Of a DNA stretch of 40,334 nucleotides, positions 8,552 through 39,457 are shown one piece after another. Position 1 is the stretch's first letter. Every line of letters starts with the position of its first letter. The position numbers and the translations under genes are program-made. Source of the stretch: an uncultured bacterium (GTDB lineage Bacteria; Hinthialibacterota; Hinthialibacteria; OLB16); contig CAYZUX010000023.1 of NCBI GenBank assembly GCA_964481775.1, forward strand, positions 1-40,334, written 5' to 3'. Below the pieces are notes generated by a model. The model had not been told where the DNA came from and ran no database searches. It saw nothing but the letters and a program-made list of their open reading frames with translations.

Positions 8552-8616
8552 TGCAGTTTTTGTTAGTCCTGCAGTGTTAAAGTCTCCTTGGGTACCCTTT
8601 AAGCTCGACGCTAAGA

Positions 8617-10707: not shown

Positions 10708-10715
10708 AATTATGA

Positions 10716-14048: not shown

Positions 14049-14169
14049 TTTGGATGTAATAACTTTACCAGAACAAGTTGATCTCAGCATGTAATCATAC
14101 TCTTCGGCGAATAAAAATAGAGATGATCCATCAGAGCGATGTGAATAAGGTGTTGGATCATTCCGTCAA

Positions 14170-17797: not shown

Positions 17798-17926
17798 TTT
17801 AATCTCCCTTCTCCTTTTTTTACAAAGTAAATTTTTACAAATAAAACAGAAACTGAAGGTTGATTGTGTTTTACCAGTTCTTCGTCTTTTGAGCCACTGA
17901 AATAAAACAGAATATTTATATACTGT

Positions 17927-19945: not shown

Positions 19946-20023
19946 ATAAAATTTCCTTCATTCCATAGATTAAAAAATATCAGAAGACCAATGTTTACAA
20001 ACATATCCTTGAATTCTCAAAAA

Positions 20024-21979: not shown

Positions 21980-22165
21980 AGAATAATACAATACAATGTT
22001 ATGGTATGATTTTGATAATCACAAAGCTCTTAGGGAGAAACTACAATGATGTTGAAACAATGAATAGACCGCATTATAAAATCAATAAAATATATTGTGT
22101 TCATAAAATAATACTCGTGACTTATTGCCGGAACGTCAGAGATTTTCACTTGTTTTACTGGCCAA

Positions 22166-22825: not shown

Positions 22826-22840
22826 ATTAATTCTCCTTAC

Positions 22841-22883
22841 AAAAAAAGGTTATCAGGCCCTCTCCTGGAGGAAGAGGGCCTGA
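22841..22883 (-). terminator. Rho-independent terminator downstream of the beta-helix gene
   Basis: A GC-rich inverted repeat tcaggccctctcc-tgga-ggaagagggcctga (22853-22883) reads on the minus strand as a hairpin followed immediately by a T7 run (A7 at 22841-22847 on plus). The RBS and ATG of the prepilin-like gene follow directly. Confidence 0.55.
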
Positions 22884-22897
22884 TTAGAATTATCACC

Positions 22898-24553
22898 TCA
22901 ATACAGATGCCAGGTTTTCACTTCAGAAGCTCCACTGTTTTTTACCTCATCTGCCCCAAGATCTGCGATAGAATTCTGAGGTCGTGTCTGGCCATCAATA
23001 TCGATCGTAATCGATGTACCAGCTGCTACATCCTGCGCCGGACTCTCTATGTCTGTCGGAAGGCGTCCATCACTGGTAAGCAGAGGATCACCCGTTATCG
23101 TATCTTCAGGAGTCGAGGTGAAATTTGCAGCCCCAGGATTGATTAGGTTCAGCGTACCATTTAATGGAAGCCATGAATTGATGGCAACCGGGGTTGCCTC
23201 AAACATGCCATCAAATATTGTGTAGTTTGCATTGATCACGTCGCTATCGGCATGACCACTAGTCAACATCCAGCCTCCCGCCATCGATGAGTTGGGAAAG
23301 AGAGTACAATGGACAAGATTTATCTCATCATTGGTCTTCTTGTCGGTCATAATTCCCCACGTCTGGTTCATATTAAAGATGCAGTTTGTTGCATTCAGTG
23401 TGAGTTTTCCGGCTCCGCCCCAATCGATTCCAAAGACCGAGCCAACATGATAGACAATCCCCGCCATTGTGCCTGCAGGAGGACTATGCAGGATACAGCG
23501 GTTCAAGTTGATATTTGCCGGATTTTCGAGGTTGCCATCCCCTGTTTCAAGACCGTCACGAAGAACTGCATCGGTAACATTAAGGGTTCCATTGGTTACC
23601 TGGCAGAATGCTCTTCCACCAATCACACCATTATCCAGCTTGTCACTGGGGCCGTTTCCATTGATATTCACAGTAGCGCCATTGTTCACACGGAAAGGAA
23701 CACCACCATTAGACCATGGATCACTGGAAAACTCATTGATAATCTTGGGATTATTCAGAGTGATCGTACAGCCGGCAGCGCCCCCAGGAGCAGCCTGATC
23801 GATAATGCTGTTTTGCCAATCAAAGGTACAATTGTTGGCTATGACAATTGCACCCGCGGTCCGTCCGGCGATCGGAGGATAGCTTGGAGGGCCTACAAAA
23901 TTGGAATCATTAAAGGTCAGGATTCCTGATCCCATGTTGCTGAATGTCAAACCACCATGGTACTGGTATTCAAGCCGGTTGAAAGTAACGTTGATGTCTC
24001 CTTGCAACCAACCAGCATTTGGACCTGCGGCGGCAAGCACGACATCGTTGAAGATGCAATCATTTGGCGCGGTTCCCGCCACAAACAGCTGACCAACCAC
24101 ACCAGCATTTCCCGAGATGACGACATTTTCAACCAATGCACCACCATTGTTTATCTCCAAGACAAGATATCCGTCGTCATAGTTGAGTGTCATCTTGTTG
24201 GTGGGGCTATCGCCTTGCAGGGTAAAGGGGGTGCCATAGACACGGATAAACTTGGTGTTCGGAGCTCCCGGATGGGTGATGGTGACAGAGGCGCCTGGTG
24301 CCGCTTTAATTGTTAGATTGTTGACATTCACATCGATCGGGGGTGTCTCAGAATTATAGGTTCCATCTGCGAGGATGATCACATCGGAATCGGCTGCGGC
24401 CGCAACTGCTGCAGTGAGCGTGGGTTGATCAGCAGGGACATTGATGGTCCCCGCAAACCCCACACTGGTGAAAAGCAACATAAGGACAATGGTTGGATGT
24501 AATACAGGAAATTGAGCTGAGACTCGCCTTTCAATATTTCTTACAGATCTCAT
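22898..24553 (-). CDS. Secreted Gly/Asn/Thr-rich beta-helix repeat protein (adhesin/polysaccharide-active-like)
   Basis: The ORF track gives 22898..24589. The Met at 24553 (MRSVRNIERRVSAQFPVLHPTIVLMLLFTSVGFAG) has a GGAGG RBS and a signal peptide. Repetitive …NNGGALVENVVISGNAGVVGQLFVAG… segments are consistent with parallel beta-helix turns. Confidence 0.5.
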   Translation of the reverse strand: MRSVRNIERRVSAQFPVLHPTIVLMLLFTSVGFAGTINVPADQPTLTAAVAAAADSDVIILADGTYNSETPPIDVNVNNLTIKAAPGASVTITHPGAPNTKFIRVYGTPFTLQGDSPTNKMTLNYDDGYLVLEINNGGALVENVVISGNAGVVGQLFVAGTAPNDCIFNDVVLAAAGPNAGWLQGDINVTFNRLEYQYHGGLTFSNMGSGILTFNDSNFVGPPSYPPIAGRTAGAIVIANNCTFDWQNSIIDQAAPGGAAGCTITLNNPKIINEFSSDPWSNGGVPFRVNNGATVNINGNGPSDKLDNGVIGGRAFCQVTNGTLNVTDAVLRDGLETGDGNLENPANINLNRCILHSPPAGTMAGIVYHVGSVFGIDWGGAGKLTLNATNCIFNMNQTWGIMTDKKTNDEINLVHCTLFPNSSMAGGWMLTSGHADSDVINANYTIFDGMFEATPVAINSWLPLNGTLNLINPGAANFTSTPEDTITGDPLLTSDGRLPTDIESPAQDVAAGTSITIDIDGQTRPQNSIADLGADEVKNSGASEVKTWHLY

Positions 24554-25348
24554 TAGTTTAACCTCCGAGATTAGAAATTCGAGTGACAAGAACCTAACTG
24601 GTTATGTTCACTTCGGTGTTGATTGAGGTTGATCTTAACTATTATTCGATTACAGAAAGCCAATAGTAAGGAAACGATTTCTACATGTCAAGCTTTATTT
24701 TAGAAAAAATTTCTTTTTTTTTGAGGGCTGAATTCTCTCCAAAAGAGGATATATTTGCGTCTGATTCATCCCAGAGAGAAAAAAAATTTGAGTTTTTCCT
24801 CTGATTTTTGTTGTCCTGGAAGATCATCGAGACACTTTTACTGGGTTAAGATATTCCTCCTCAGGCTGAGAGGACTTTAGTATGGAAAACGAATTTTCGA
24901 AGATCAAAGCCTTGGAATATTTCCGAAGAAAGGCTGCTCGTTTTCCTTCACTTTTTCACAAAACAAGGTCAACCGAGCTCAAGTCCCCCTGGAAAGACAT
25001 TTTATCGAATAACACCTTGATAATGCAGGTCTTAACAACAAATGAAGGGTACCCCCTTTCCCCATTTTATTCACCCACGGGGAGGTCTCACTCAAAAGGG
25101 AATAGCGCCGTTCCAAAACCAAGGCAGACCATCCGAGGATGAGGGCTGAGAAGATTAGGATTAGGAGTGGTGGCGAGACGATGAGTCGATCCTTGATGAA
25201 TCAAGCCAAGACAATATGACCTTACCAATGGTCCGTGAGTGAAAATCAGGCTAAGGCTGGTTAGAATTCGGATGCGTCTCGAAAAGGGGGCGTGCCATCA
25301 TCACTTTGATCATGCAAAATTTTTCGAGAAGTTCTACCATCGTTGCTA

Positions 25349-26369: not shown

Positions 26370-26472
26370 GGGTTATCAGGGAGGATAACAGGGACAAGAA
26401 AAAACCGCTTGGTTTTGATTATTAGTGGAGCCTGCTGGTCATCTCAATAAAATTACAGGAGGAATATCAAAG

Positions 26473-27822
26473 ATGTATACGCGTTACTATGATCCAGAAA
26501 TCTTCATCCAGATGCTGGATGGCATTGATCTGGATGATCATGTGGTTGCTTCATATTATCTGAAAGACCGGATAGAGGGACAGAAGTGGCTTGACCATTT
26601 TGCTCTTATCCAGGCCATGGGGCTTGAGGGTTCCACGGGAACATGGGAAAAAGTGGAGGAAGACACCGCTGATGTGCGAATTGCGATGTCCAGCAAGATG
26701 GTGGGATACCACGAGATTCCGGCCGAGGATCCTTACACGAAGTCAGCCGTGGTTCAGTTGGCATTTCCGATCCGGGCATGGGGTGATAACCTCCCGATGA
26801 TGTTACTTGCAATTGCTGGTAATTGCTTTGCCTATTCAAAAAATATCATGTTGACAGACCTCTTTATAGGAAAGAACCTGTTAAAAATGTTTAAGGGGCC
26901 GAAGTTTGGTGTTCAAGGTGTTCGTGAACTGACTGGTGTTAAAGACCGTCCACTCTCTCTTCACATCATCAAGCCGAAGATGGGGATGACACCGGAACAG
27001 ACCGCCAACCAGGTGGCACAAACAGCTGCTGGCGGAGCGGACATGTGTAAAGATGATGAGATGCTGGCCGATGCATACAATAATACTATGGAACAACGTC
27101 TTCCTCTGGTTATGGAAGCGATCAACCGTGCCGCTGATAAAACGGGCAAGAAGATGATTTACCTTTGCAGCATCACTGATGAAAGTCAGAAAATGATCGA
27201 TAAGGCGAAAAAAGCTATAGAGCTCGGGGCAAATGGACTTCTCGTGACCTATTCAGCCGGTCTTGCAGCCTTGCGGAAACTGACTTCTGATCCTGATATC
27301 ACAGTTCCGGTAATGCTCCATGCCTCTCATATGATCGCCATGATGAAACAAATTGCCTGGCCTGTGCTGGCGAAACTGTGTCGTCTGTGCGGGGCCGATC
27401 TCATGTTGACACCGACGATCTGGTCATCCATTCCGATGGTATCAATGGAGGAGGGAATTCGGACTTCTTTCATGCAGCTGGCTCCATGGGGACATATCAA
27501 ACCAACTTTCCCGATGCCATGTGCCGGTGTCTATCCTGGGCTGGCTCCAATCATTATCGGCGAGTATGGAACTGATATCGTAATCCCTGCGGGTGGCGGT
27601 ATGCTTGGTCATCCAGATGGTTACACAGCGGGTGCGAAAGCTTGGAGACAGGCAATCGATGCGGCACTGTCCAATGAGAACTTTATCGATTACGCCAAAA
27701 AACCAGAAAACAAGGAATTAAGACGCGCGATCGAGAAATGGGGCTATATTGAACGACCCAAATCACCTTGGTTGCGTGTGGCTCCTGAGTTTCATCCAAA
27801 AACGATGAAGTTTGATGACTGA
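26473..27822 (+). CDS. RuBisCO large-subunit homologue, RuBisCO-like protein (form IV-like; not predicted to be a carboxylase)
   Basis: The ORF track starts at 26425. The Met at 26473 (MYTRYYDP…) has an AGGAGGAA RBS. A by-eye alignment to form I RbcL gives [11 protein letters not shown] vs STGTWTTVWTD; GNCFAYS…[37 protein letters not shown] vs GNVFGF…[47 protein letters not shown] vs GGLDFTKDDE; and …[27 protein letters not shown] vs …[26 protein letters not shown]. Positions equivalent to H294/R295, H327, K334 and S379 appear substituted (LHASH, [16 protein letters not shown], PCAGV). Confidence 0.8.
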   Translation: [449 protein letters not shown]

Positions 27823-29409: not shown

Positions 29410-30396
29410 GTGCTTGCTGGACATTCATTCGGAGCTTGTTTACCCACATTCGGGAGTTGCGCGGATCGCTACTGCCTTGGCGGTTATGGTGGTGGGGGGG
29501 AAACCATCAAGGAGATGATAGACCTTTCCCTGAAGGTTAAAGGAATAGATGGGCTTGAACTGGTTGGTAATTGGCATGTCAATGATAACAATATACGTGA
29601 AATTGGAGCCATGTTCAAAGACAGGAATCTCAAAATTCCGATGTTGGTTCCAGACCTTTGGACACAGGCTAAATGGGGCAAGGGTAGTCTTGCTGCACCC
29701 GACGCAGTTACCCGGCAAGCGGCAATTGATGAAGTCCGCAAGGTGATGGATTGGGCGGCAGAGTTGAATTGTCCTTATGTGGATGTTTGGCCGGGTCAGG
29801 ATGGTTATGATTATTGCTTCCAGACTGATCACCTTGCTGCTTGGGAATGGCTACATGATGGTCTGGCAGCCTGTGCTTCTCATAATGATAAGGTAAAAGT
29901 TCTGGTCGAATACAAACTTAAGGAGCCAAGGACACATATTATTGTCAACAGTGCCGCAAAAACTCTCCTGCTCCTGGAAGATCTTCCCAATGTTGGCTGT
30001 CTACTGGATATTGGACATTCACTTGCCGCGGGAGAAAACATCGCGGAAGCTGCTTCACTACTAGCCCGTTATGGGAAGCTGGATTACCTTCACCTCAATG
30101 ATAACTATCGGTCTTGGGATGATGACATGATGCTTGGCTCGGTTCATCTTGTCGAGACCCTCGAACTGGCTTATTGGTTGAAACGATTGAACTATAATGG
30201 TTGGCTCACTCTCGATATTTTCCCTTACCGGGAGGATGGTGTTCGTGCCGCAACCCAGTGTTACCGGTGGATGGAAGCTCTGTTTTCATGTATTGAGCGT
30301 GTCGGGATGGACGAAATTGGATCAGTCATTAAGACAGGCGATGGATGTTCGGCAGTTGAAATTGTTCGGCGAGCATTTGGCCTGGAAAAAGACTAA
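29410..30396 (+). CDS. Xylose-isomerase-like TIM-barrel sugar (phosphate) isomerase/epimerase
   Basis: GTG start at 29410 with a strong AGGAGGAAAGAAAG RBS. The motifs …CLLDIGHSLAAGENI… and …LDYLHLNDN… are typical of the AP-endonuclease-2/xylose-isomerase-like (beta/alpha)8 family, which includes ketose 3-epimerases, OtnI-type isomerases and L-rhamnose-isomerase relatives. Confidence 0.65.
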   Translation: MLAGHSFGACLPTFGSCADRYCLGGYGGGGETIKEMIDLSLKVKGIDGLELVGNWHVNDNNIREIGAMFKDRNLKIPMLVPDLWTQAKWGKGSLAAPDAVTRQAAIDEVRKVMDWAAELNCPYVDVWPGQDGYDYCFQTDHLAAWEWLHDGLAACASHNDKVKVLVEYKLKEPRTHIIVNSAAKTLLLLEDLPNVGCLLDIGHSLAAGENIAEAASLLARYGKLDYLHLNDNYRSWDDDMMLGSVHLVETLELAYWLKRLNYNGWLTLDIFPYREDGVRAATQCYRWMEALFSCIERVGMDEIGSVIKTGDGCSAVEIVRRAFGLEKD

Positions 30397-30579: not shown

Positions 30580-31053
30580 ATGGTAGTTGCAATCAAAGTA
30601 CCAGACATGGGAACAACTGTGGATACAGTTATTTTAACAACCTGGCTGGTCAAAGAAGGCGAACATATTTCTCGTGGAGATCCAATTGCGGAAATTCAGA
30701 CTGATAAAGCGAATGTACAGCTTGAATCCGTTGCAGAAGGGATTCTCTTGAAGTGTATTGTGGAGGAGAATACAGAGCTTTCGGTAGGCCAAATTCTTGC
30801 CTACATTGGTTCGGCTGGGGAAATTATCGATGATGCGGCAATACCGGATTCCTCCTGTAATCCTGTTAAAAATGAGCAGTTTACTACAAGTCCAGAATCC
30901 TCATCGATAATATCAGTTCATGAAAACCCAACTGGTGAAGCTGCTGGTGATTCAGGTAAGTCTAATGACGGGAAAAAACGGGTCAAGGGTTCAACTCCGG
31001 TTTCGAAGATGGTCCGTAACCTGGCCCGGAAACACCAATTGGATTTGAATTAA
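30580..31053 (+). CDS. Lipoyl-domain protein with linker and the N-terminal half of a peripheral-subunit-binding domain (E2-like, lacking any catalytic acyltransferase domain); reads in frame into E1-alpha across a TAA
   Basis: The lipoyl-lysine motif is IAEIQTDKANVQLES within MVVAIKVPDMGTTVDTVILTTWLVKEGEHISRGD…. A Pro/Ser/Ala-rich linker follows, then GSTPVSKMVRNLARKHQLDLN-stop. The PSBD consensus (…RKLA.[23 protein letters not shown]) continues directly after the stop as VRGTGKGGSITREDV in the same frame. Confidence 0.75.
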   Translation: MVVAIKVPDMGTTVDTVILTTWLVKEGEHISRGDPIAEIQTDKANVQLESVAEGILLKCIVEENTELSVGQILAYIGSAGEIIDDAAIPDSSCNPVKNEQFTTSPESSSIISVHENPTGEAAGDSGKSNDGKKRVKGSTPVSKMVRNLARKHQLDLN

Positions 31054-31098
31054 GTCCGGGGCACAGGGAAGGGCGGAAGCATTACTCGTGAGGATGTA

Positions 31099-32100
31099 AT
31101 GCGTTTGGTGAACTCCACATCACCTGTGACTCCCATACCTGATGAAAACGATCCTTCATTTCTACTTGATCTTTACCGGAAAATGCTTCTGATCCGAAGG
31201 TTTGAAGAGCGCGTCAAATACCTTTTCCTTGAAGGTATCATGCCGGGTACCATTCATCAGTATCAGGGTGAGGAGGCTGTGGCGGTAGGAGTATGTGCCA
31301 CACTTAACCGGGATGACATCATAACAAGCACGCACCGTCCGCATGGTCACGCAATAGCCAAGGGGATTCCCATCAATTCATTGCTCAATGAATTGTTCGG
31401 AAAGACAACGGGTTGTTGTCGTGGTAAGGGAGGTTCGATGCATGTGGGCGATCTGGAACTGGGCATGGTTCCTGCCATTGCCATTGTGGGTGGAAATGTC
31501 CCACTGGCAACAGGTTGTGCTCTTGCATTTAAGATGAGGGGAGAATCGAGGGTAGCGGTTTCCTTCATGGGCGACGGAGCCATTAATGAAGGTGCCTTTC
31601 ATGAGGGTGTGAACATGGGTGCTATCTGGTCACTTCCTGTAATCTACGTTATCGAAAATAACCTGTACTCAGCATCGACACCGATTGGGAGCACAGTTAA
31701 GTTGTCAAAACTCTCTGATCGGGCCTTAGGCTATGGAATCCCTGGTGTCACTATTGATGGAAATGATGTCATGGAGGTCTACCGTGCAAGCCGTGAAGCT
31801 GTGGACCGTGCTCGAAAGGGGAAAGGTCCTACGCTGATCGAAGCCATCACCTATCGAATAACTGGTCACTCACGACGCGATCCCTGTAATTACCAGCCGG
31901 AAGAAGAGCGCAATGAGGCGATAAAGAAAGAACCAATTGGGCGATTTGAAAAACACCTGATTGAAACTGGCCTTATCAACCGGGATCAACTGAACCAGAT
32001 TAGCAAGGAAATAGATTTAGAGATTGAAGAGGCTGTTCAGGAAGCCATAAATGGACCAGATCCAAAACCAGAAGACGCTTTACAAGATGTCTTTGTGTGA
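31099..32100 (+). CDS. TPP-dependent 2-oxoacid/acetoin dehydrogenase E1 component alpha subunit
   Basis: …LYRKMLLIRRFEERV…IHQYQGEEAVAVGVCATLNRDDIITSTHRPHGHAIAKG…. The TPP motif is GDGAINEGAFHEGVNMGAIWSLPVIYVIENNLY. It is in the same frame as the upstream lipoyl ORF, with a GAGGA RBS before the ATG at 31099. Confidence 0.85.
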   Translation: MRLVNSTSPVTPIPDENDPSFLLDLYRKMLLIRRFEERVKYLFLEGIMPGTIHQYQGEEAVAVGVCATLNRDDIITSTHRPHGHAIAKGIPINSLLNELFGKTTGCCRGKGGSMHVGDLELGMVPAIAIVGGNVPLATGCALAFKMRGESRVAVSFMGDGAINEGAFHEGVNMGAIWSLPVIYVIENNLYSASTPIGSTVKLSKLSDRALGYGIPGVTIDGNDVMEVYRASREAVDRARKGKGPTLIEAITYRITGHSRRDPCNYQPEEERNEAIKKEPIGRFEKHLIETGLINRDQLNQISKEIDLEIEEAVQEAINGPDPKPEDALQDVFV

Positions 32101-32115
32101 GAGAAGGAAAGAATT

Positions 32116-33132
32116 GTGTCAAAAAAATCGATTGCTGAAGCCTTGCGTGAAGGTTTGCGTGAAGAAATGTTACGCGATGAGAGGGTTTTCTGTATTGGTG
32201 AGGATATTGCCATCCCAGGCGGATGGGGAGGAGCCTTCACCGTTACCCTGGGTTTGGAAAGCGATTTTGCTGACCGGATGATTAATACACCCATATCAGA
32301 AAATGGTGCGTTTGGTGTGGCTTGTGGAGCAGCGATGATGGGGATGAGACCAATCGCCGATGTTCAATATGGGGATTTCCTGTTCTGCGCCATGGATCAG
32401 GTTGCCAACAACATTGCAAAATTACGATATATGTCTGGAGGCAAGCTCGAGGTCCCAATCGTCATGCGTGCACCTGTCGGAGCCACCGGACGCGGAGCAC
32501 AACACGCTCAGAATCTCGAATCTATCTTTCTCTCCATTCCCGGAATCAAAATAGTGTGTCCCGCGACTGCTTATGATGCCAAGGGCTTACTAAAAGCAGC
32601 TGTTCGTGATAATAATCCTGTTCTTATGTTTGAACATAAGTTACTTTATGGCTCAAAAGGGGCACGGGCTGAATCGGGCTCACTGGATGCATCCAGTGAA
32701 ATCCCGGATCATGATTATATTGTACCCATTGGCAAAGGTATTGTTCGACGGGAAGGCAGTGATGTGACCATTGTCGGGACCCTGTTGATGATGCATTACG
32801 CTTTGAACGCCGCGGAAGTACTTGCAGCTGAAGGAATAAGCGCGGAAGTTATCGATCCCAGATCCCTGAATCCTTTTGATTGGCCTATCCTGGAGAAATC
32901 GGTCAGGAAAACCACTCGGTTGGTGACCGTCGAGGAAGGTCCATGCTTTGGTGGAATTGGTGCGGAAATATCAGCAACTGTTTCCGAACGATTGGGGGAT
33001 TACCTGACTGCCCCGATTTCTCGTGTGGGTGCACCCAATATTCCCGTACCCTTTGCCCCCATCATGGAAAACTATTATCGTCCAGATGTAAATAAGATCA
33101 TTGAAACTGTCCGGCAAGTGTGTGATAATTGA
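32116..33132 (+). CDS. E1 component beta subunit (transketolase-like pyrimidine-binding and C-terminal domains)
   Basis: GTG start with a GAAGGAAAG RBS, 15 nt after the E1-alpha stop. Motifs include …VFCIGEDIAIPGGWGGAFTVTLGLESDFADRMINTPISENGAFGVACGAAMMGMRPIADVQYGDFL… and …HAQNLESIFLSIPGIKIVCPATAYDAKGLL…. Confidence 0.85.
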   Translation: MSKKSIAEALREGLREEMLRDERVFCIGEDIAIPGGWGGAFTVTLGLESDFADRMINTPISENGAFGVACGAAMMGMRPIADVQYGDFLFCAMDQVANNIAKLRYMSGGKLEVPIVMRAPVGATGRGAQHAQNLESIFLSIPGIKIVCPATAYDAKGLLKAAVRDNNPVLMFEHKLLYGSKGARAESGSLDASSEIPDHDYIVPIGKGIVRREGSDVTIVGTLLMMHYALNAAEVLAAEGISAEVIDPRSLNPFDWPILEKSVRKTTRLVTVEEGPCFGGIGAEISATVSERLGDYLTAPISRVGAPNIPVPFAPIMENYYRPDVNKIIETVRQVCDN

Positions 33133-33175
33133 TCAAATGCCAGATTTTTTAATATTATTCCGTTAGGATACTGAA

Positions 33176-33796
33176 ATGACTGAACTGCGTAGTTTTATCA
33201 TACTTGATAATCTTCAGGAACAGTTGGCCTCATTCATGGCATCGACTGTCCAGGGGTATATGCCAGTGGCAGGAATGGCTTCCTTGTTTGTGGAGGTAGC
33301 ACCGGGTATGGAGATTGTCAGATTGCTGGATCGAGCTGTAAAAGCAACCGGTGTCCGTCCCGCGATTCAGGTTGTCGAGAGAAACTTTGGTGCTTTAGAA
33401 GTTCATTCAGATTCCCAAGCCGATGTTCGCCAGGCAGGCCTGGCAATTCTGGAGGCACTGGGAATGACGGAGGAGGACAGGATGAAACCAAGAATCGCTT
33501 CGTCCACGGTCATCCGGAAGGTGGATCCCTATCATGCCTCATTAATTAACAAAAGTCGTTCAGGTTCTTTATTGCTTGCCGGTCAGACTTTGTTTATTCT
33601 CGAGACACAACCAGCCATGTATGCAGTGCTGGCGTCCAATGAAGCGGAAAAGGCCAGCAAAGTGACCCTGGTGGATATACGTCCATTTGGAAATTATGGA
33701 CGATTGTACCTGGGGGGGGATGAGGCTGATGTCGTGGTGGGAAGTCAGGCCGCGATAAACTCGTTAATCAATCTTTCTGGGAAAGAAACCAACTGA
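33176..33796 (+). CDS. BMC-T shell protein (tandem BMC-domain, probably permuted PduB/EutL-like)
   Basis: Two BMC-like halves. The second ends …[35 protein letters not shown], which matches the canonical BMC C-terminal pattern G.V..V.GDV.AV..A. Confidence 0.65.
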
Positions 33797-33810
33797 GAGG
33801 AGAAAGTAAA

Positions 33811-34116
33811 ATGGCGGATGCACTTGGGATGATCGAAACACAAGGATTTGCAGCGATGGTGGAGGCCTCGGATGCGATGGTCAAGGCTGCCAAGGTTGAG
33901 CTTGTGGGATATGAGAAGACAGGTGGAGGCTATGTTACAGCGATTATCAGGGGAGATGTGGCCGCTGTTAAAGCCGCCTGTGAGGCGGGAGAACGGGGTG
34001 CGCGGGGAGTGGGTCAAGTCATATCAATCCATATCATCCCACGACCCCATACGAATGTAGACCTGGTTCTTCCTTTAGGCCGCAAAGAGGAAGCCGCCAA
34101 AGAAGCCGGAAAGTAG
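33811..34116 (+). CDS. BMC-H shell protein (PduA/EutM-type hexamer)
   Basis: [64 protein letters not shown] is a textbook Pfam00936 single-domain sequence with a short charged C-terminal tail. Confidence 0.9.
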
Positions 34117-34123
34117 AATTTCC

Positions 34124-34420
34124 ATGCAGATTGGCAGAGTGATTGGAACTGTGGTATCCACCGCTAAAGAACCCATGTTGGAAGGCCGGAAGCTGCTGGT
34201 GGTTCGTTCCCTCGATCTGAATGCGAAGGCGACAACAGGTTATGTGGTGGCAGTTGATTCGGTGGATGCGGGGATTGGTGATGTGGTCCTTGTCGCTCAG
34301 GGAAGTTCAGCCCGTTTGACAGGTGCCACAAAGGACCGTCCATGCGATGCGGTGATAATCGGGATTGTGGATTCATGGGATGTTGGCGGCGTAACCAAAT
34401 ACAGGAAAAGTGAAGAATGA
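34124..34420 (+). CDS. BMC-P vertex protein (EutN/PduN/CcmL family)
   Basis: MQIGRVIGTVVSTAKEPMLEGRKLLVV…GYVVAVDSVDAGIGDVVLVAQGSSARL…AVIIGIVDSWDV follows the EutN/CcmL pattern. Its stop overlaps the AldDH start (ATGA at 34417-34420). Confidence 0.85.
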   Translation: MQIGRVIGTVVSTAKEPMLEGRKLLVVRSLDLNAKATTGYVVAVDSVDAGIGDVVLVAQGSSARLTGATKDRPCDAVIIGIVDSWDVGGVTKYRKSEE

Positions 34421-35793
34421 CCCAGCGACAGCCAGTGTCAAGCCAGTCCTTGTGTTCTCCCTCCGTCTCCAGTGAGGGACCATGTTTTCCCTGTGTCGAT
34501 GCAGCAGTCACACGTGCATGCACAGCTTTCGAGGCTATGTCTGGTATGAACCTCGATACTCGTATTCGTGTGGTGGCTGCCATGCGCCAGGCAGCCAGGA
34601 ATCATGTCAAGGAATTAGCTTCACTGGCGGTCGAGGAAACGGGGCTTGGAAGGGTTGAGGATAAGGTTCGAAAAAACCTGCTGGTCACTATCAAAACTCC
34701 CGGTCCGGAATTCCTGGAACCTGTCGCTCAAAGCGGCTCCCGTGGTTTGATGTTGATGGAACGGGCGCCTTATGGAGTGATAGCATCCATTATTCCCGTT
34801 ACCAATCCCACTACCACGGTAATCAACAATGGGATAGCCATGATCAGCGCAGGGAACGCAGTGGTTTTCAATGCTCATCCCGGGGCCAAACGATGTTCCA
34901 ACCGTTGCATAGAAATTCTTAACGAAGCGATTATGGGCGCAGGGGGTCCCCCTGATCTGTTGACGGCGATTCCAGATCCAACGATCGGGACAGCACAGGC
35001 GTTAATGCGCCATACGAAGATCGCTTTGCTGTGTGTCACGGGGGGACCTGGAGTTGTACGCGAAGCCATGAATTGTGGCAAGAAGGTGATCGCCGCGGGA
35101 GCAGGAAATCCTCCCGCGGTCGTCGATGAAACCGCTGACATAAGTAATGCGGCAAATTCCATTGTCGCTGGTGCTTCTTTGGATAACAACATCATCTGCA
35201 CGGACGAAAAGGTCGTGGTAGTTGTCGATTCCATCGCTGATGATCTGAAGCGTCATATGCTGGCCCTGAATTGCGTTGAAGTTTCCGGAATTGATTTGCA
35301 GCGAGTATGTCGCTCGATCTTCAAATCCATTGAGGGCCGTTTTGGAACAATAAATACGCAAATGGTGGGTAAGGATGCCAGTATGATTCTGTCCGGGGCA
35401 GGGATCAATTGCCCCGCAGAAACACGTTTGGCTCTTTGCGAGGTTGACCGGGATCACCCGCTCGCCTGGACTGAGCAACTGATGCCAATTCTTCCGATTG
35501 TCCGAGCCAAGGACGTGGATGAGGCCATTTCCCTGGCGGTTGCTTATGAAAATGGACGGCGCCATACAGCGACCATGCATTCCACGAACATAGAAAAGTT
35601 GAATAAGATGGCTCGGATAGCCAACTGTTCAATCTTTGTCATGAATGGACCCTCCTTTGCCGGCCTGGGAATGGGTGGCGAGGGATATGCCTCGTTTACA
35701 ATAGCCAGTCCGACTGGAGAAGGTCTGACAAGTCCGATCAGTTTTACACGTGAGCGCCGTTGTACTCTGGTCGACACGCTAAGAATCGTGTAG
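34417..35793 (+). CDS. CoA-acylating aldehyde dehydrogenase (PduP/EutE-like BMC signature enzyme) with ~40-aa N-terminal extension
   Basis: …ERAPYGVIASIIPVTNPTTTVINNGIAMISAGNAVVFNAHPGAKRC…; the catalytic Cys context is LDNNIICTDEKVVVV. The N-terminal MTQRQPVSSQSLCSPSVSSEGPCFPCVDAAVTRACTAFEAMSGM precedes the conserved core. Confidence 0.85.
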   Translation: MTQRQPVSSQSLCSPSVSSEGPCFPCVDAAVTRACTAFEAMSGMNLDTRIRVVAAMRQAARNHVKELASLAVEETGLGRVEDKVRKNLLVTIKTPGPEFLEPVAQSGSRGLMLMERAPYGVIASIIPVTNPTTTVINNGIAMISAGNAVVFNAHPGAKRCSNRCIEILNEAIMGAGGPPDLLTAIPDPTIGTAQALMRHTKIALLCVTGGPGVVREAMNCGKKVIAAGAGNPPAVVDETADISNAANSIVAGASLDNNIICTDEKVVVVVDSIADDLKRHMLALNCVEVSGIDLQRVCRSIFKSIEGRFGTINTQMVGKDASMILSGAGINCPAETRLALCEVDRDHPLAWTEQLMPILPIVRAKDVDEAISLAVAYENGRRHTATMHSTNIEKLNKMARIANCSIFVMNGPSFAGLGMGGEGYASFTIASPTGEGLTSPISFTRERRCTLVDTLRIV

Positions 35794-35923
35794 TCCATAC
35801 TATTTTCTGATAAAAAGAGTAGAGTTCAAGATTGTAATAAATTGGGTTAGTGATAATTATTGTACCATCAGATAAACTTGTCACCAGATAATCCAAACAT
35901 AAAATAAAACGGGAGATATTCGA

Positions 35924-36481
35924 TTGGCTGTACTTGGGATGGTGGAGTTTAACAGAATTGCTACTGGCATTCATGCAACAGATGCCATGGTGAAGGCAGC
36001 TGAAGTTGAACTTATCGAATCCAGACCGATTACACCGGGCAAGTATATCTCGCTCGTGACTGGAGATGTGGCTTCTGTGAGTGCTTCCGTCAAAGCGGGT
36101 ATTGAAACAGCGGGTCTTGATGGAGTGATTGAGTCCTTTGTGCTCCCAAACCTTCATCCGCAAATTTTGCCCGTGATGCAAGGATACAACCCGGTTCCTG
36201 ATAAGGAGGCGGTCGGTATACTCGAAACAACTGGTGTTGCCGCTATTATTACAGCAACAGATGCAGCTCTAAAGGAATCTCCCGTGATTCTCGTTCGTCT
36301 TCATCTGGGTCTTCACATTGGAGGAAAGGGTTACGCAGTACTTGTGGGTGAGATTGCGGATATCGAGTCTTCAATCATGGCGGGAACCCGACAGGCTGGA
36401 AATCAACTTATCGATAAGAAAATTATTCCGAATCCTTATGAGGAGATATACCAATACCTCATGAAGAAACCTCACTGGTAA
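35924..36481 (+). CDS. Fused double BMC-domain shell protein (non-permuted tandem, BMC-T-like pseudohexamer)
   Basis: Domain 1 is MAVLGMVEFNRIATGIHATDAMVKAAEVELIESRPITPGKYISLVTGDVASVSASVKAGIE. Domain 2 is AVGILETTGVAAIITATDAALKESPVILVRLHLGLHIGGKGYAVLVGEIADIESSIMAG. Both are BMC-H-like. Confidence 0.75.
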   Translation: MAVLGMVEFNRIATGIHATDAMVKAAEVELIESRPITPGKYISLVTGDVASVSASVKAGIETAGLDGVIESFVLPNLHPQILPVMQGYNPVPDKEAVGILETTGVAAIITATDAALKESPVILVRLHLGLHIGGKGYAVLVGEIADIESSIMAGTRQAGNQLIDKKIIPNPYEEIYQYLMKKPHW

Positions 36482-36497
36482 GGATGATAAACTCGAT

Positions 36498-36782
36498 ATG
36501 ATTCCTGCACGAGTTATTGGCAGAATGGTTCTCAATCAAACTCTGCCGGCATTTCAGGGAGTTCCCTTTCTTTTGGTGGAGCCCATTAATGAAAAAATGA
36601 TCACTTCGGGGGATTATATGGTTGTCTGTGACGCTATTGGTGCCAATCTGGGTGAAACGGTATTTCTCGCCCAGGGACGGGAGGCGACTTTCAATCTTCC
36701 CGACCCATTCAATCCGGCCGACATGACGATAATTGCCATAATTGACCAAATAACGACCGGTCAGGATTCTCAGAAGGAATAG
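36498..36782 (+). CDS. BMC-P vertex protein paralogue 2 (EutN/CcmL family)
   Basis: MIPARVIGRMVLNQTLPAFQGVPFLLVEP…GDYMVVCDAIGANLGETVFLAQG…MTIIAIIDQI. Confidence 0.8.
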   Translation: MIPARVIGRMVLNQTLPAFQGVPFLLVEPINEKMITSGDYMVVCDAIGANLGETVFLAQGREATFNLPDPFNPADMTIIAIIDQITTGQDSQKE

Positions 36783-36790
36783 TTCAAACA

Positions 36791-37063
36791 GTGAAAATTG
36801 CACGTGTTGTGGCCCATGTTGTCTCAACCCAGAAGGTGATCAAGTATCACGGGATGAAAACATTGCTGGTAAAACCGTTACGTCTGGATGGAAGTGAGGA
36901 GGGCTCCACTTTTGTTGCCATAGACCGGGTACAGGCTGGGATCGGTGATATGGTATTATTAATGCAGGAGGGCAGCTCTGCTCGTACAATGTTTTATGAT
37001 GAACAAATGCCTGCTAGAAGTGTGATTGTCGGGATTATTGATCACCTGGAGATTAATGAATGA
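36791..37063 (+). CDS. BMC-P vertex protein paralogue 3 (EutN/CcmL family)
   Basis: MKIARVVAHVVSTQKVIKYHGMKTLLVKPL…STFVAIDRVQAGIGDMVLLMQEGSSAR…VIVGIIDHLEI. Its stop overlaps the aldolase start (ATGA at 37060-37063). Confidence 0.85.
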   Translation: MKIARVVAHVVSTQKVIKYHGMKTLLVKPLRLDGSEEGSTFVAIDRVQAGIGDMVLLMQEGSSARTMFYDEQMPARSVIVGIIDHLEINE

Positions 37064-37824
37064 TGACTGAGCTCGACATAAGAAAGGCAATATGTGAGGC
37101 CGGTAAAAGGCTTTATCTAAAAAATCTTGTTGCTGCGACTGATGGAAATATCAGTGTTCGGATTGGACCTGATCGATATCTTTGCACCCCAAGCGGAGTT
37201 TCGAAATATGATATGGCCCCTCATCATATTCTTATTGCTGACGGGCGAGGGAAACGGATATCTGGCGAGGGTAAAGTAACCTCCGAGTTTTTTACTCACC
37301 TTGCGGCGTATGAAGAACGAGCTGATGTGAGGGCTGTGGTTCATGCCCACCCACCAAAGGCCGTCGGATTTTCACTGGCGGGTGTTTCCATGGCGGAGTG
37401 TGTATTACCGGAAGTGGTTTACACGATAGGCGGTATTCCAACCTCCACCTATGCGACACCAGCTACTAAAGAAGGAGGGGAATCCATCAGGGAATTGATC
37501 CGCAAGTGTGATGCTCTGGTGATGGACCGTCATGGCGCAATTACTGTCGGAGTCGATGTTTATGACGCTCTTTTCAAAATGGAAAAGATCGAACATGCGG
37601 CGGATACTCTACTGGTGGCGCATCTATTAGGAAAAATTCGGACATTGGATTCAGAACAAATCATAAAATTACAGGGAATCCGGAAGTCCTATGGCGTATC
37701 AGGATATGCATATCCCTGTCATGAAAAGTCCTCGACACAATCTGAAAAAAATAAAGACGGAAACGAATCCTCAGACTTGGATAATATTATTGAGGATACC
37801 TTGCGAATTCTGGGCGGTGGGTAA
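37060..37824 (+). CDS. Class II (metal-dependent) aldolase, L-fuculose-/L-rhamnulose-1-phosphate aldolase family, with C-terminal encapsulation-peptide-like extension
   Basis: …ATDGNISVRIGPDRYLCTPSG… and the zinc-ligand motif VVHAHPPKAV, with Glu in TSEFFTHLAAYEE. Beyond the ~210-aa core lies a low-complexity linker (KSSTQSEKNKDGNESS) and an amphipathic DLDNIIEDTLRILGGG tail. Confidence 0.85.
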   Translation: MMTELDIRKAICEAGKRLYLKNLVAATDGNISVRIGPDRYLCTPSGVSKYDMAPHHILIADGRGKRISGEGKVTSEFFTHLAAYEERADVRAVVHAHPPKAVGFSLAGVSMAECVLPEVVYTIGGIPTSTYATPATKEGGESIRELIRKCDALVMDRHGAITVGVDVYDALFKMEKIEHAADTLLVAHLLGKIRTLDSEQIIKLQGIRKSYGVSGYAYPCHEKSSTQSEKNKDGNESSDLDNIIEDTLRILGGG

Positions 37825-38167
37825 GATATTGGTAAAAAAAAAGGATCGTGGCATAAAGTAATTATTATGTAGCAACAAATACTTCATTCCAGAATTACTT
37901 CTATCGCAGGACAGAAAGACCAGAATCCATCACCATCACCCTATGGAAGAAGAGGGTGGAAAATTATGTAAAACAATTTGCAAAACCAAACCAATAGTTT
38001 ATTATTTGATGAGTATGTTCATGATTAATCAATAAAAAGCATGTGTCCAGATTTGACTATTTGATTTTTATTCCAGGTTGAGTTTTATCGATTAAAGACT
38101 AATGAAAACATGGACTTCCGGATTTATTCTTGTTTTAATATTATTAATCCAAACCAAGGAGACGGTT

Positions 38168-39457
38168 ATGACGGCAACAAAAAATTCCCTAATGGCAACA
38201 ATCAAATCCCTGATGGAAGAAAAAGGTGTGCGCCGCCACGAACAGTCTGGCTACTATTATTACACCAGTTACGTGGACCTTTATGACTGGGAACTCTACT
38301 TTGATACAATTGCTCTGGCCTATGTTGGCGGAGAAGAAATTGCAATTCAGGGCCTTCGATTGTTTTGTGAGGCTCAAAAAACTGATGGATTTATCAGCCG
38401 GAGAATTCTTCAAAAACCTCTTCCAGAGAAAATCCCTGATCTTCATCGGAGGATATTCGCCGAGGAACAATTAGAACACTGTAAGCCCTTTCTTTTTCAG
38501 ACTTCGTTGATAATCAGCCGAACCAGAGGCAATGTGAACTGGCTTCGCCGAGAGGATTACGATGCACTTAAGAAATACCTGGACCACTGGTTATCATGCT
38601 GGGACCGTAATTCGAATGGACTGTGTGAATGGAGTAGTGCCCCACATAGTGGCTCGGATACTCAGTTGGAACGAATTGGACCTTGGCGATCGCGGTATTG
38701 TGAAGGTGTTGATTTGAACTGCTTTATAGTTTATGAGTGCCAGGCTGCCGCCTATATCTCTGAGGCAATGGGAGAAACCGAAGATTCGCAAAGATTTAGA
38801 CGAGAAGCTCACAGACGATCTCAGCTGATTCGAGATTTGCTCTGGGATGATCAGGAAGGTTTCTTCTATGATCGTGATGCGCGCACGGGGAAACAAATCA
38901 AAGTTAAATCCGCCGCCGCCTTTTTGACCCTGTGGGCGGGAGTTGCGACACCGGCTCAGGCTCAAGATCTTGTTCAGAGATACCTTTTGAATCCGGAGGA
39001 ATTCTGGCGTCCATTTCCGATATCGAGTTATGCCCGGTCAGAGCCATCCTACACACAATTTTATATCCCAAAGCCTGATATGGACCCTCTTAATGCTCTG
39101 GGACCCGGCCATGCCAACTGGTGCGGTGGGATGTGGCCTCATTGGAATTACCAGATCGTCCATGGACTGATTGAATATGGTTTCAAAGAGGAAGCTGGAA
39201 TTATAGCTGATAAACTTTTTGAGGCTGTTTCCAGAGAAGAAGGGCTGTTCGAATGGTATGATGCCGAGACAGGAGCCGGACAAGGTCTGAACCCCTTTTG
39301 GGCCGGTGCTTCCATCATGGGTGTGGTTCTCCCGGAAGAACTTCGGCAGGAGTTCAACCCCTCTCAGCCGGATTCTGTTGAGAAATTATTGAAATTTGAA
39401 ACGATGCGTTCAGCCCTCGGAATAGATAGTGTCTTTAACCCAAAGATAATACATTGA
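38168..39457 (+). CDS. Six-hairpin (alpha/alpha)6 glycoside hydrolase-like protein (GH63/GH37-like)
   Basis: The ORF track starts at 38102, which would add a hydrophobic MKTWTSGFILVLILLIQT leader. The Met at 38168 has a strong AAGGAGA RBS 7 nt upstream. The motifs …WDRNSNGLCEW…, …FFYDRDARTG… and …ANWCGGMWPHWNYQIVHGLIEYGFKEEAG… fit GH63/trehalase-like folds. Confidence 0.5.
   Translation: MTATKNSLMATIKSLMEEKGVRRHEQSGYYYYTSYVDLYDWELYFDTIALAYVGGEEIAIQGLRLFCEAQKTDGFISRRILQKPLPEKIPDLHRRIFAEEQLEHCKPFLFQTSLIISRTRGNVNWLRREDYDALKKYLDHWLSCWDRNSNGLCEWSSAPHSGSDTQLERIGPWRSRYCEGVDLNCFIVYECQAAAYISEAMGETEDSQRFRREAHRRSQLIRDLLWDDQEGFFYDRDARTGKQIKVKSAAAFLTLWAGVATPAQAQDLVQRYLLNPEEFWRPFPISSYARSEPSYTQFYIPKPDMDPLNALGPGHANWCGGMWPHWNYQIVHGLIEYGFKEEAGIIADKLFEAVSREEGLFEWYDAETGAGQGLNPFWAGASIMGVVLPEELRQEFNPSQPDSVEKLLKFETMRSALGIDSVFNPKIIH

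What the first reader, a model, noticed from the sequence alone, without database searches (positions are those of the whole stretch)
37690..37824. C-terminal tail on the class II aldolase with linker plus amphipathic helix (DLDNIIEDTLRIL): second cargo-targeting signal
Class II fuculose/rhamnulose-1-P aldolases are ~210-215 aa. This one continues for ~40 more residues: a polar low-complexity linker (HEKSSTQSEKNKDGNESS) followed by SDLDNIIEDTLRILGGG. This matches the encapsulation-peptide architecture reported for aldolases of the PVM-type organelle. It implies that the C-C cleavage step itself, not only aldehyde oxidation, occurs inside the shell.
Basis: partly seen in the sequence, partly recalled or inferred. 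Interest (0 to 1): 0.5.

Follow-up and report, generated by a model that had tools for sequence, protein, structure and literature searches.

The report
Microcompartment targeting tail on an aldolase
The aldolase gene next to a cluster of bacterial-microcompartment shell genes ends in a flexible linker plus a short amphipathic helix, a known kind of signal that packs enzymes into the protein organelle, here in a new bacterial lineage.

Summary
ORF 37060-37824 (+) encodes a 254-aa class II aldolase. Its FucA-like fold ends near residue 217-220. It is followed by a variable polar linker (221-238) and a conserved amphipathic helix (L240-G252, LDNIIEDTLRILG). AlphaFold2 predicts a disordered linker and a confident helix. 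Sixty-six homologues keep the helix motif (L/M)D-x-h-h-x-x-T-L-x-h-L-G while the linker varies freely. Homologues of 60-70% identity that lack the tail lie outside microcompartment loci (5 of 5 looked up). Tail-bearing ones lie directly after two BMC-P genes (4 of 4). Across 87 loci, tail and shell genes go together (Fisher p = 2e-8). So the encapsulation-peptide reading is well supported, and it is an already described kind: C-terminal EPs are reported on class II aldolases of PVM, PVM-like, GRM5, ACI, MUF2 and MUF3 loci.

The locus is not PVM-type: it has no PTAC, acetate kinase or alcohol dehydrogenase, and its shell set is HO-like, in Hydrogenedentota-like bacteria. The tail is also not a "second" signal. 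The adjacent aldehyde dehydrogenase has no EP, because most of its clade has lost the N-terminal one. The aldolase tail is the only canonical EP in the operon.

The parts
37060..37824 (+). Class II aldolase gene (254 aa plus stop), last gene of the shell/AldDH/aldolase operon
   Evidence: ORF. Pfam PF00596 E = 2.8e-43. Best fold match is E. coli FucA, TM 0.90. An identical protein, P0001, is in the public collection.
37060..37716 (+). Catalytic domain, residues 1-219. E76, H95, H97 and H158 are invariant and align to FucA E73, H92 and H94 (H158 by numbering offset only); Y211 = FucA Y209.
   Evidence: Alignments. AF2 10-residue block means of pLDDT are 81-98 through residue 220.
37717..37719 (+). 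Cys220 at the junction of domain and tail. It is 94% conserved in tail-bearing homologues and absent from tail-less ones.
   Evidence: In 58 of 61 homologues it opens a cluster of 2-4 Cys (CxxCxC in 15). The window protein has only this one Cys.
37720..37773 (+). Linker HEKSSTQSEKNKDGNESS (residues 221-238): polar, no aliphatic residues, predicted disordered, not conserved
   Evidence: Mean column entropy 3.2 bits against 0.78 in the core. AF2 pLDDT is below 50 for residues 223-236. The linker differs almost completely from the 88%-identical P0002.
37774..37815 (+). Amphipathic helix, the encapsulation peptide: D239-G252, conserved motif L240-D-x-I-I-x-x-T247-L-x-I-L251-G252
   Evidence: AF2 helix 236-250, with a 10-residue block mean pLDDT of 86 for residues 241-250. 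Conserved hydrophobic positions fall at i, i+3, i+4, i+7, i+8, i+11. muH 0.58, shuffle fraction 0.012. The motif is unique to this gene in the window.
37816..37824 (+). Terminal Gly-Gly and the stop codon
33176..33796 (+). BMC-T, double-permuted (CcmP/CsoS1D-like) shell protein
   Evidence: NCBIfam CcmP model E = 3.7e-79, below its curated cutoff. PDB CcmP 1.5e-69 and HO-5816 7.7e-62.
33811..34116 (+). The single BMC-H shell hexamer gene
   Evidence: Pfam BMC 1.4e-29. The best natural PDB match is H. ochraceum HO-5815, 2e-43.
34124..34420 (+). BMC-P pentamer 1
   Evidence: Pfam EutN_CcmL 1.2e-29.
34417..35793 (+). Acylating aldehyde dehydrogenase (PduP/EutE-like) without any recognisable encapsulation peptide
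   Evidence: NF011927 E = 2e-183. The C-terminus aligns to the core end of 5jfl. N-terminal EP is absent here and in about 50 of 66 clade members.
35924..36481 (+). BMC-T, tandem (PduT-like) shell protein
   Evidence: Pfam BMC, two domains. TIGR02526 7e-35. PDB 3nwg 1.3e-46.
36498..36782 (+). BMC-P pentamer 2
   Evidence: Pfam EutN_CcmL 2.8e-20.
36791..37063 (+). BMC-P pentamer 3. Its stop overlaps the aldolase start (ATGA).
   Evidence: Pfam EutN_CcmL 6.3e-26. Sequence.

Best explanation
Residues 221-254 of the aldolase are a C-terminal encapsulation peptide.

Proposed mechanism:
- A disordered polar linker holds a 13-15-residue amphipathic helix away from the catalytic domain.
- The hydrophobic face of the helix (L240, I243, I244, T247/L248, L251) binds the inner face of shell proteins, or bundles with other EP helices.
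- The aldolase is presumably a tetramer like FucA, so it would carry four tails. It would then be condensed and enclosed as the shell assembles. The shell is built from 1 BMC-H, 2 BMC-T and 3 BMC-P encoded just upstream.
- The aldehyde released by C-C cleavage would then be formed inside the compartment and oxidised there by the co-encoded acylating aldehyde dehydrogenase.

Shown here: the architecture, the conservation pattern, the predicted disorder and helix, and the tight co-occurrence of tail and shell genes.

Inferred: binding to the shell, the tetrameric state, encapsulation itself, and the identity of the substrate. The neighbouring rhamnulokinase-like and sugar-isomerase genes suggest a 6-deoxy-ketose-1-phosphate.
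For: 1. Architecture. The fold ends near residues 217-220. AF2 gives pLDDT below 50 for 223-236 and a helix at 236-250, block mean 86 for residues 241-250.
2. Selection pattern. The linker is free to vary and the helix is conserved in 67 homologues. Invariant or near-invariant residues sit on one helical face.
3. Natural experiment among close relatives.
   - Tail-less homologues at 60-70% identity (P0082, P0078, P0093, P0120, P0067) have no shell genes within 10 kb.
   - Tail-bearing homologues (P0007, P0058, P0002, P0031) lie directly after BMC-T/BMC-P/BMC-P.
   - The neighbourhood 'Aminotran_4 ... aldolase, then a Zn-ribbon protein of about 350 aa' exists without the shell block (L087, L089) and with it (L083). 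The tail is present only with the block.
4. Across 87 loci from many phyla, with 'tail' meaning 20 aa or more beyond the core and 'shell' meaning shell genes within 10 kb:
   - with tail, 64 have shell genes and 8 do not; without tail, 2 do and 13 do not (Fisher p = 1.7e-8);
   - with at least 5 kb on both flanks: with tail 42 and 2; without tail 0 and 9.
5. The hydrophobic register (h-acidic-x-h-h-x-x-h-h-x-x-h) matches the N-terminal EP IEAVVREVMKRL carried by some AldDHs of the same BMC type.
6. The literature describes this feature on class II aldolases of PVM, PVM-like, GRM5, ACI, MUF2 and MUF3 BMCs.
Against: - There is no experimental evidence for this protein. I found no paper in the held library that tests an aldolase EP directly.
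- The association statistics ignore phylogenetic relatedness. Many of the loci are Vicinamibacterales ACI loci.
- Tail-less aldolases do occur inside BMC loci (L013, L030). The catalogue says only about a third of HO aldolases have a possible EP. The tail is therefore not obligatory for BMC association.
- The linker (18-21 aa) is at or just below the 23-81 aa range reported for aldolase EPs.
- The high pLDDT of the helix in a monomer model could reflect docking onto its own domain.
Confidence: 0.8

Rival explanations
1. The tail acts mainly as a cargo-cargo tether rather than a shell anchor. It would bind the EP-less aldehyde dehydrogenase, or other aldolase tails, and so nucleate an enzyme core on which AldDH piggybacks. 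This overlaps with the best explanation, because both functions are proposed for EPs.
For: The AldDH of this operon, and most of its clade, lacks an EP. The aldolase tail was present in all 9 aldolase/AldDH pairs matched by contig, against 4 of 9 for the AldDH EP. The aggregation model for EPs is published (PMC4594438).
Against: No interaction data exist. AldDH could enter by another route, such as direct shell contact or an unrecognised signal.
Confidence: 0.3
2. The tail is a regulatory or structural appendage of the enzyme and is unrelated to encapsulation. Examples would be a redox- or metal-sensing Cys-rich segment, a lid over the active site, or an oligomerisation helix.
For: Cys220 is 94% conserved, and 58 of 61 homologues have 2-4 Cys at the start of the tail. 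In FucA the C-terminal segment (Y209) takes part in catalysis, and the tail follows directly after the equivalent Y211. AF2 gives the helix high confidence in a monomer model.
Against: The window protein has lost the Cys cluster but keeps the helix. Close paralogues outside BMC loci work without any tail. Tail presence tracks shell genes rather than enzyme subfamily.
Confidence: 0.07
3. The extension is a meaningless low-complexity read-through or an annotation artefact.
For: The linker is low-complexity and diverges even from the 88%-identical homologue.
Against: The helix motif and the reading frame are kept in 66 homologues down to 60% identity, with invariant T247 and L251.
Confidence: 0.01

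Closest known systems
C-terminal encapsulation peptides of BMC-associated class II aldolases (PVM, PVM-like, GRM5: Aussignargues et al. 2015, PMC4594438; ACI, MUF2, MUF3: Sutter et al. 2021, PMC8217296, Supplementary Data 2)
   Same: Same enzyme family (PF00596) and same terminus. Same architecture: poorly conserved hydrophilic, Cys-enriched linker followed by an amphipathic helix of 12-17 aa. It is absent from non-BMC homologues. The hydrophobic register relative to a terminal 'LG' or basic residue matches the tails seen here in Clostridia, Latescibacterota and ACI loci.
   Different: The helix has its own lineage-specific motif, (L/M)DxhhxxTLxhLG. The linker is short, 18-21 aa against the reported 23-81. 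The host is Hydrogenedentota-like, and the locus lacks the PVM core enzymes.
HO-type BMC (Haliangium ochraceum), especially type II loci and the type I satellite 'two BMC-P + aldolase' (PMC8217296, Supplementary Data 2)
   Same: One BMC-H, a BMC-P triplet, one BMC-Ts and a BMC-Tdp, with AldDH and a PF00596 aldolase following two BMC-P genes. The BMC-H is closest to HO-5815. A relative (L084) has exactly the satellite arrangement BMC-T/BMC-P/BMC-P/aldolase.
   Different: HO AldDHs are reported always to have an N-terminal EP, and only about a third of HO aldolases have a possible EP. Here the situation is reversed: the aldolase EP is constant and the AldDH EP is mostly lost. HO is described mainly from Deltaproteobacteria. 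The catalogue lists Hydrogenedentes only under FRAG6 and FRAG7.
N-terminal EPs of PduP/EutE-type aldehyde dehydrogenases
   Same: Same helix pattern. AldDHs of this BMC type that keep an EP read IEAVVREVMKRL, against the aldolase's LDNIIEDTLRIL.
   Different: Opposite terminus and a different enzyme. The window's own AldDH lacks it.
E. coli L-fuculose-1-phosphate aldolase FucA (PDB 1FUA)
   Same: Same fold (TM 0.90). The Zn-binding histidines H92 and H94, Glu73 and Tyr209 have aligned equivalents. H158 is taken as the FucA H155 equivalent from the numbering offset.
   Different: Only 28% identity. FucA Tyr113 aligns with an invariant Glu118 in my reading of the alignment. FucA has no tail. The substrate of the window enzyme is not established.

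Membership tests
Encapsulation peptide (EP) of bacterial microcompartment cargo | Terminal extension that is absent from homologues not associated with BMCs | tested here: met
   Homologues of 60-70% identity and 219-227 aa end at query residues 220-225 and lie outside BMC loci. FucA ends at the equivalent of residue 217.
Encapsulation peptide (EP) of bacterial microcompartment cargo | Predicted amphipathic alpha-helix of about 12-20 residues | tested here: met
   AF2 helix 236-250. muH 0.58, reached by 1.2% of shuffles. The conserved hydrophobic positions lie on one face.
Encapsulation peptide (EP) of bacterial microcompartment cargo | Poorly conserved linker, rich in small and hydrophilic residues, between the domain and the helix | tested here: met
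   Residues 221-238 have entropy 3.2 bits, no aliphatic residues, and pLDDT below 50. At 18-21 aa the linker is slightly below the published 23-81 aa range.
Encapsulation peptide (EP) of bacterial microcompartment cargo | Encoded with shell-protein genes | tested here: met
   It is the last gene of an operon with 1 BMC-H, 2 BMC-T and 3 BMC-P. Association across 87 loci gives p = 1.7e-8.
Encapsulation peptide (EP) of bacterial microcompartment cargo | Necessary and/or sufficient for targeting cargo into the shell | not testable with these tools
   This needs a reporter fusion with shell co-expression, or a tail deletion.
PVM-type BMC locus | [quoted passage not shown] | tested here: met
   aldolase, AldDH, 3 BMC-P and 1 BMC-H.
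PVM-type BMC locus | PTAC (PduL), acetate kinase, a lactate/malate-DH-type alcohol dehydrogenase and a DeoR regulator in the locus | tested here: not met
   None was found among the ORFs of the 40-kb window that I scanned against Pfam or NCBIfam. The nearby regulator is RpiR-type.
PVM-type BMC locus | Host in Planctomycetes or Verrucomicrobia | tested here: not met
   Named close homologues are from Candidatus Hydrogenedentes/Hydrogenedentota.
HO-type BMC locus (type II) | Single BMC-H, BMC-P triplet, BMC-Ts and BMC-Tdp with AldDH in one locus; aldolase in the main locus in about half | tested here: met
   Gene order is Tdp-H-P-AldDH-Ts-P-P-aldolase. The BMC-H is closest to HO-5815.
HO-type BMC locus (type II) | AldDH always carries an N-terminal EP | tested here: not met
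   The window AldDH has only a 26-aa polar N-terminal stretch with no EP-like amphipathic pattern.
L-fuculose/L-rhamnulose-1-phosphate aldolase (functional assignment) | Score above the curated equivalog cutoff, or biochemical evidence | tested here: not met
   FucA models score 79-93 bits against cutoffs of 264-400, and RhaD 47 against 170. The top hits are an epimerase subfamily model and a decarboxylase model, also far below cutoff. The fold, the aligned metal ligands H95 and H97, and Glu76 are conserved.

The most novel reading that the evidence does not exclude
In this Hydrogenedentota HO-like metabolosome the aldolase tail is the only encapsulation signal. It would therefore be the primary organiser of the lumen. 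The aldehyde dehydrogenase has lost the ancestral N-terminal EP and would be recruited by piggybacking on the aldolase, which presumably carries four tails per tetramer. This reverses the HO/PDU/EUT pattern in which AldDH carries the EP. In most relatives a Cys cluster (often CxxCxC) at the base of the tail could add redox- or metal-dependent cross-linking of the cargo core.
Probability: 0.25. Interest if true: 0.45.

Novelty: new member of a known kind. Interest (0 to 1): 0.27.

Why it matters
The tail marks the aldolase as the signature cargo. This means the aldehyde is generated inside the shell, in a microcompartment type from a poorly studied candidate phylum that degrades polysaccharides.

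Two practical points follow. First, the tail is a short, well-defined targeting tag whose partner shell has an HO-like hexamer, the hexamer of the main engineering chassis. Second, the set of close tail-less paralogues and EP-less AldDHs is a clean comparative system for asking which cargo needs its own signal.

None of this changes current understanding of microcompartments. C-terminal EPs on class II aldolases have been described since 2014-2015.

Tried and rejected
1. AldDH C-terminus as an EP. RRCTLVDTLRIV resembles the aldolase helix (DTLRIL). It aligns to the conserved core C-terminus of PduP-like AldDH 5jfl, and it is present in all relatives whether or not they have an N-terminal EP. 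It is therefore not an EP.
2. Sugar isomerase C-terminus as an EP. The isomerase (29410-30396) ends GDGCSAVEIVRRAFGLEKD, which looked EP-like. The 120 best homologues listed (of 3,500) are nearly all 324-332 aa long (range 315-340), with 96-100% query coverage and the same helix. It is part of the fold.
3. Motif search. I searched all six frames of the window and of loci L081-L089 for the aldolase helix motif, to find further cargo. The only hits at a protein terminus are the aldolases themselves; three degenerate matches lie inside other ORFs. The first pattern was mis-specified and was corrected in the second call.
4. Lipoyl-domain protein (30580-31053). Its terminal helix reads like the first half of an E2 peripheral-subunit-binding domain. 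Pfam gives no E3_binding hit, and I left it unresolved.
5. Promoter and terminator scan of 33000-38200. Counts were no higher than in shuffled sequence.
6. Erbilgin et al. 2014, the original PVM paper (PMC3993161), is not held in the library. The EP HMMs of Sutter et al. are held only as truncated text and could not be run.
7. A tail-only profile search of the 1.84-billion-protein library was considered and not run. I estimated that the motif carries about 25-30 bits, too little for significance at that database size.
8. The neighbour-joining tree of the core domain has no support values. I used it only as an indication that tail-less sequences are nested among tail-bearing ones.

Full report
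**What is there.** The ORF 37060-37824 (+) encodes a 254-aa protein. Residues 10-184 match Pfam Aldolase_II (E = 2.8e-43).

The gene is the last in a co-directional block:
- BMC-T, CcmP/CsoS1D-like, 33176-33796
- BMC-H, 33811-34116
- BMC-P, 34124-34420
- acylating aldehyde dehydrogenase (AldDH), 34417-35793
- BMC-T, PduT-like, 35924-36481
- BMC-P, 36498-36782
- BMC-P, 36791-37063
- aldolase, 37060-37824

Immediately upstream lie an RpiR regulator, a RuBisCO-like protein, a rhamnulokinase-like FGGY kinase, a xylose-isomerase-fold sugar isomerase, a free-standing lipoyl-domain protein and PDH-type E1 alpha and beta subunits. No phosphotransacylase, acetate kinase or alcohol dehydrogenase is found anywhere in the window. 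Sources name the close homologues of the aldolase and the AldDH as Candidatus Hydrogenedentes/Hydrogenedentota.

**Where the enzyme ends and the tail begins.**
- E. coli FucA (215 aa) aligns with its Tyr209 on query Tyr211, so FucA would end at about query residue 217.
- An AlphaFold2 model built on 67 homologues has mean pLDDT 89. Foldseek places it on FucA with TM 0.90 over about 208 columns.
- In the model, 10-residue block means of pLDDT are 81-98 up to residue 220. Residues 223-236 have pLDDT below 50. Residues 236-250 form a helix, with a block mean of 86 for residues 241-250.
- The nearest tail-less homologues (219-227 aa, 60-70% identical) stop within five residues of query position 220.

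The tail is therefore residues 221-254 (37720-37821). It consists of the linker HEKSSTQSEKNKDGNESS, the helix DLDNIIEDTLRILG and a terminal GG.

**Is the helix amphipathic and under selection?** The hydrophobic moment of SDLDNIIEDTLRILG is 0.58. Shuffles give mean 0.27, and 1.2% reach the observed value.

Conservation is more telling. In 67 tail-bearing homologues (60-88% identity), the mean column entropy is 0.78 bits in the core, 3.2 bits in the linker and 1.4 bits in the helix. T247 and L251 are invariant. L240, D241, L248 and G252 are 81-96% conserved. Positions 243 and 244 are always aliphatic-like. The conserved hydrophobic positions fall at i, i+3, i+4, i+7, i+8 and i+11, which is one face of a helix. 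Even the 88%-identical P0002 has an unrelated linker and a nearly identical helix.

- Five tail-less close homologues were looked up (P0082, P0078, P0093, P0120, P0067). None has a shell gene within 10 kb.
- Four tail-bearing ones were looked up (P0007, P0058, P0002, P0031). All lie directly after BMC-T/BMC-P/BMC-P.
- The same neighbourhood, an Aminotran_4 gene, the aldolase and a conserved Zn-ribbon protein of about 350 aa, occurs without the shell/AldDH block and without the tail (L087, L089). It also occurs with both (L083).
- Across 87 loci (79 scorable from 80 species-representative genome loci, plus 8 metagenome contexts), I scored a tail of at least 20 aa against shell genes within 10 kb. 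With a tail, 64 loci have shell genes and 8 do not. Without a tail, 2 do and 13 do not (Fisher p = 1.7e-8).
- Requiring at least 5 kb on both flanks gives 42 and 2 with a tail, and 0 and 9 without.

Caveats:
- The loci are phylogenetically related; many are Acidobacteriota ACI loci.
- The flanks are limited to 10 kb.
- Two tail-less aldolases do sit in BMC loci (L013, L030).
- A neighbour-joining tree of the core domain places a large tail-less group within tail-bearing sequences. This suggests loss of the tail when the gene leaves the BMC context, but the tree has no support values.

**Comparison with what is known.** Aussignargues et al. 2015 (PMC4594438) aligned 23 BMC-associated and 12 other class II aldolases. 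They found an amphipathic peptide of about 17 aa at the C-terminus of 21 of the BMC-associated sequences. It was separated from the domain by an unconserved linker of 23-81 aa that was unusually rich in Cys. Sutter et al. 2021 (PMC8217296 and Supplementary Data 2) report C-terminal EPs on PF00596 aldolases of ACI, MUF2 and MUF3 loci, and possible ones on about a third of HO aldolases.

The feature is thus a known kind. The tails I recovered from Clostridia, Latescibacterota and ACI loci share the same hydrophobic register.

What is specific here:
- the lineage motif (L/M)DxhhxxTLxhLG
- a short linker
- the host locus

**The locus is not PVM.** It lacks PTAC, acetate kinase, an alcohol dehydrogenase and a DeoR regulator. 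Its shell set (one BMC-H, three BMC-P, one Tdp, one Ts) and its gene order resemble HO type II. The BMC-H is closest to H. ochraceum HO-5815 (2e-43, against 4e-32 for PduA). A relative (L084) has the HO type I-style satellite BMC-T/BMC-P/BMC-P/aldolase. The catalogue describes HO mainly from Deltaproteobacteria and lists Hydrogenedentes only under FRAG6 and FRAG7. This looks like an uncatalogued HO-like, incomplete-core metabolosome.

The E1/lipoyl/RuBisCO-like/kinase/isomerase module is absent from the locus of the 88%-identical relative (L085). It is therefore not a conserved part of the organelle operon.

**Not a 'second' signal.**
- The AldDH ends RRCTLVDTLRIV, which superficially resembles the aldolase helix. 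This segment aligns with the core C-terminus of the PduP-like structure 5jfl and is universal in the family.
- Its N-terminal 26 residues (MTQRQPVSSQSLCSPSVSSEGPCFPC) are polar and align with the linker of 5jfl.
- In the AldDH clade of 66 proteins (63-91% identity), only about 13 keep an N-terminal EP of the form IEAVVREVMKRL (460-468 aa). About 50 have none.
- The sampled members of the next clade (55-61% identity, mostly 476-504 aa) carry one, apart from one N-terminally partial sequence.
- The motif occurs in no other ORF of the window or of loci L081-L089 apart from the aldolases themselves.
- The sugar isomerase's EP-like C-terminus is a family-wide structural helix.

The aldolase tail is therefore the only canonical EP in this operon. 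The AldDH EP, where it is kept, and the aldolase EP share the pattern h-acidic-x-h-h-x-x-h-h-x-x-h. This is compatible with a common binding site or with mutual bundling.

**Mechanism.** Most likely (about 0.8), the helix is an encapsulation peptide. Its hydrophobic face would bind the luminal side of shell proteins and/or bundle with other EPs. The aldolase, presumably a tetramer as FucA is (established knowledge, not tested here), would then be condensed and enclosed. The aldehyde product would be made next to the AldDH.

A compatible variant (about 0.3) is that the tail mainly tethers cargo to cargo and that the EP-less AldDH piggybacks. A purely enzymatic or regulatory role is unlikely (about 0.07). 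The window protein has lost the Cys cluster that most relatives carry at the base of the tail yet keeps the helix, and close paralogues function without any tail.

The substrate is not established. All NCBIfam equivalog scores are far below their cutoffs. FucA Tyr113 is replaced by an invariant Glu118 in my reading of the alignment. The neighbouring genes suggest a phosphorylated 6-deoxy-ketose.

**Verdict.** The EP interpretation is well supported bioinformatically. The 'PVM' and 'second signal' framing is wrong. This is a new member of a known kind and of modest interest. The most interesting aspect is the reversal of the usual pattern: the aldolase EP is constant and the AldDH EP is lost.

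Noticed in passing
window 34417-35793: The BMC aldehyde dehydrogenase has no encapsulation peptide. About 50 of 66 close relatives also lack one, about 13 keep an N-terminal EP (IEAVVREVMKRL-like), and the sampled full-length members of the next clade have one. This suggests repeated or early loss of the AldDH EP in this BMC type.
   Followed up: yes
window 37717-37730, and homologues P0002-P0066: Cys220 at the base of the tail is 94% conserved. In 58 of 61 tail-bearing homologues it opens a cluster of 2-4 Cys (CxxCxC in 15, CxxC in 9). The window protein is one of only three with a single Cys. The function is unknown; metal binding or redox sensing are possibilities.
   Followed up: partly
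window 26425-27822: A RuBisCO-like protein lies next to a rhamnulokinase-like kinase and a sugar isomerase, just upstream of the BMC operon. Its best NCBIfam hit is the DK-MTP-1-P enolase model at 275 bits, against a cutoff of 409. Its role, and any link to the class II aldolase, is unexplained.
   Followed up: no
window 30580-33132: A 157-aa free-standing lipoyl-domain protein is followed by PDH-type E1 alpha and beta subunits, directly upstream of the shell genes. The protein has a long polar linker and a terminal helix (VSKMVRNLARKHQLDLN) that reads like the first half of an E2 subunit-binding domain. No E2 catalytic domain or E3 is in the window. The module is absent from the closest relative's locus (L085).
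   Followed up: partly
L083 3309-12154; L087 8168-11949; L089 8897-12064: There is conserved synteny: an Aminotran_4 gene, the aldolase, and a protein of about 350 aa with an N-terminal CPxCR...CRxCGE zinc-ribbon motif and no Pfam hit. It exists with the shell/AldDH block inserted (and the aldolase tail present) and without it (tail absent). The Zn-ribbon protein is also downstream of the aldolase in L084, L086 and L088, but not in the window.
   Followed up: partly
window 33811-34116: The single BMC-H is most similar, among solved structures, to the Haliangium ochraceum HO-5815 hexamer (2e-43). That hexamer is the basis of the main synthetic-shell model system.
   Followed up: partly
window 5363-24589 (minus strand): A large minus-strand block encodes polysaccharide-utilisation-like genes. 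It includes a fucose-isomerase-like gene (16409-17797), GH63/trehalase-like and rhamnosidase-like hydrolases, a beta-helix protein, an SSF transporter and a prepilin-type N-methyl protein. Three large ORFs have no Pfam hit: 14170-16437 (755 aa), 5363-8674 (1103 aa) and 22898-24589 (563 aa).
   Followed up: no
window 37060-37824, residue 118: The position equivalent to FucA Tyr113, a catalytic residue from the neighbouring subunit, is an invariant Glu within an LPE motif in this whole clade. The best NCBIfam hits are an epimerase subfamily model and a decarboxylase model rather than FucA. The reaction catalysed may therefore not be a classical fuculose or rhamnulose-1-P cleavage.
   Followed up: partly
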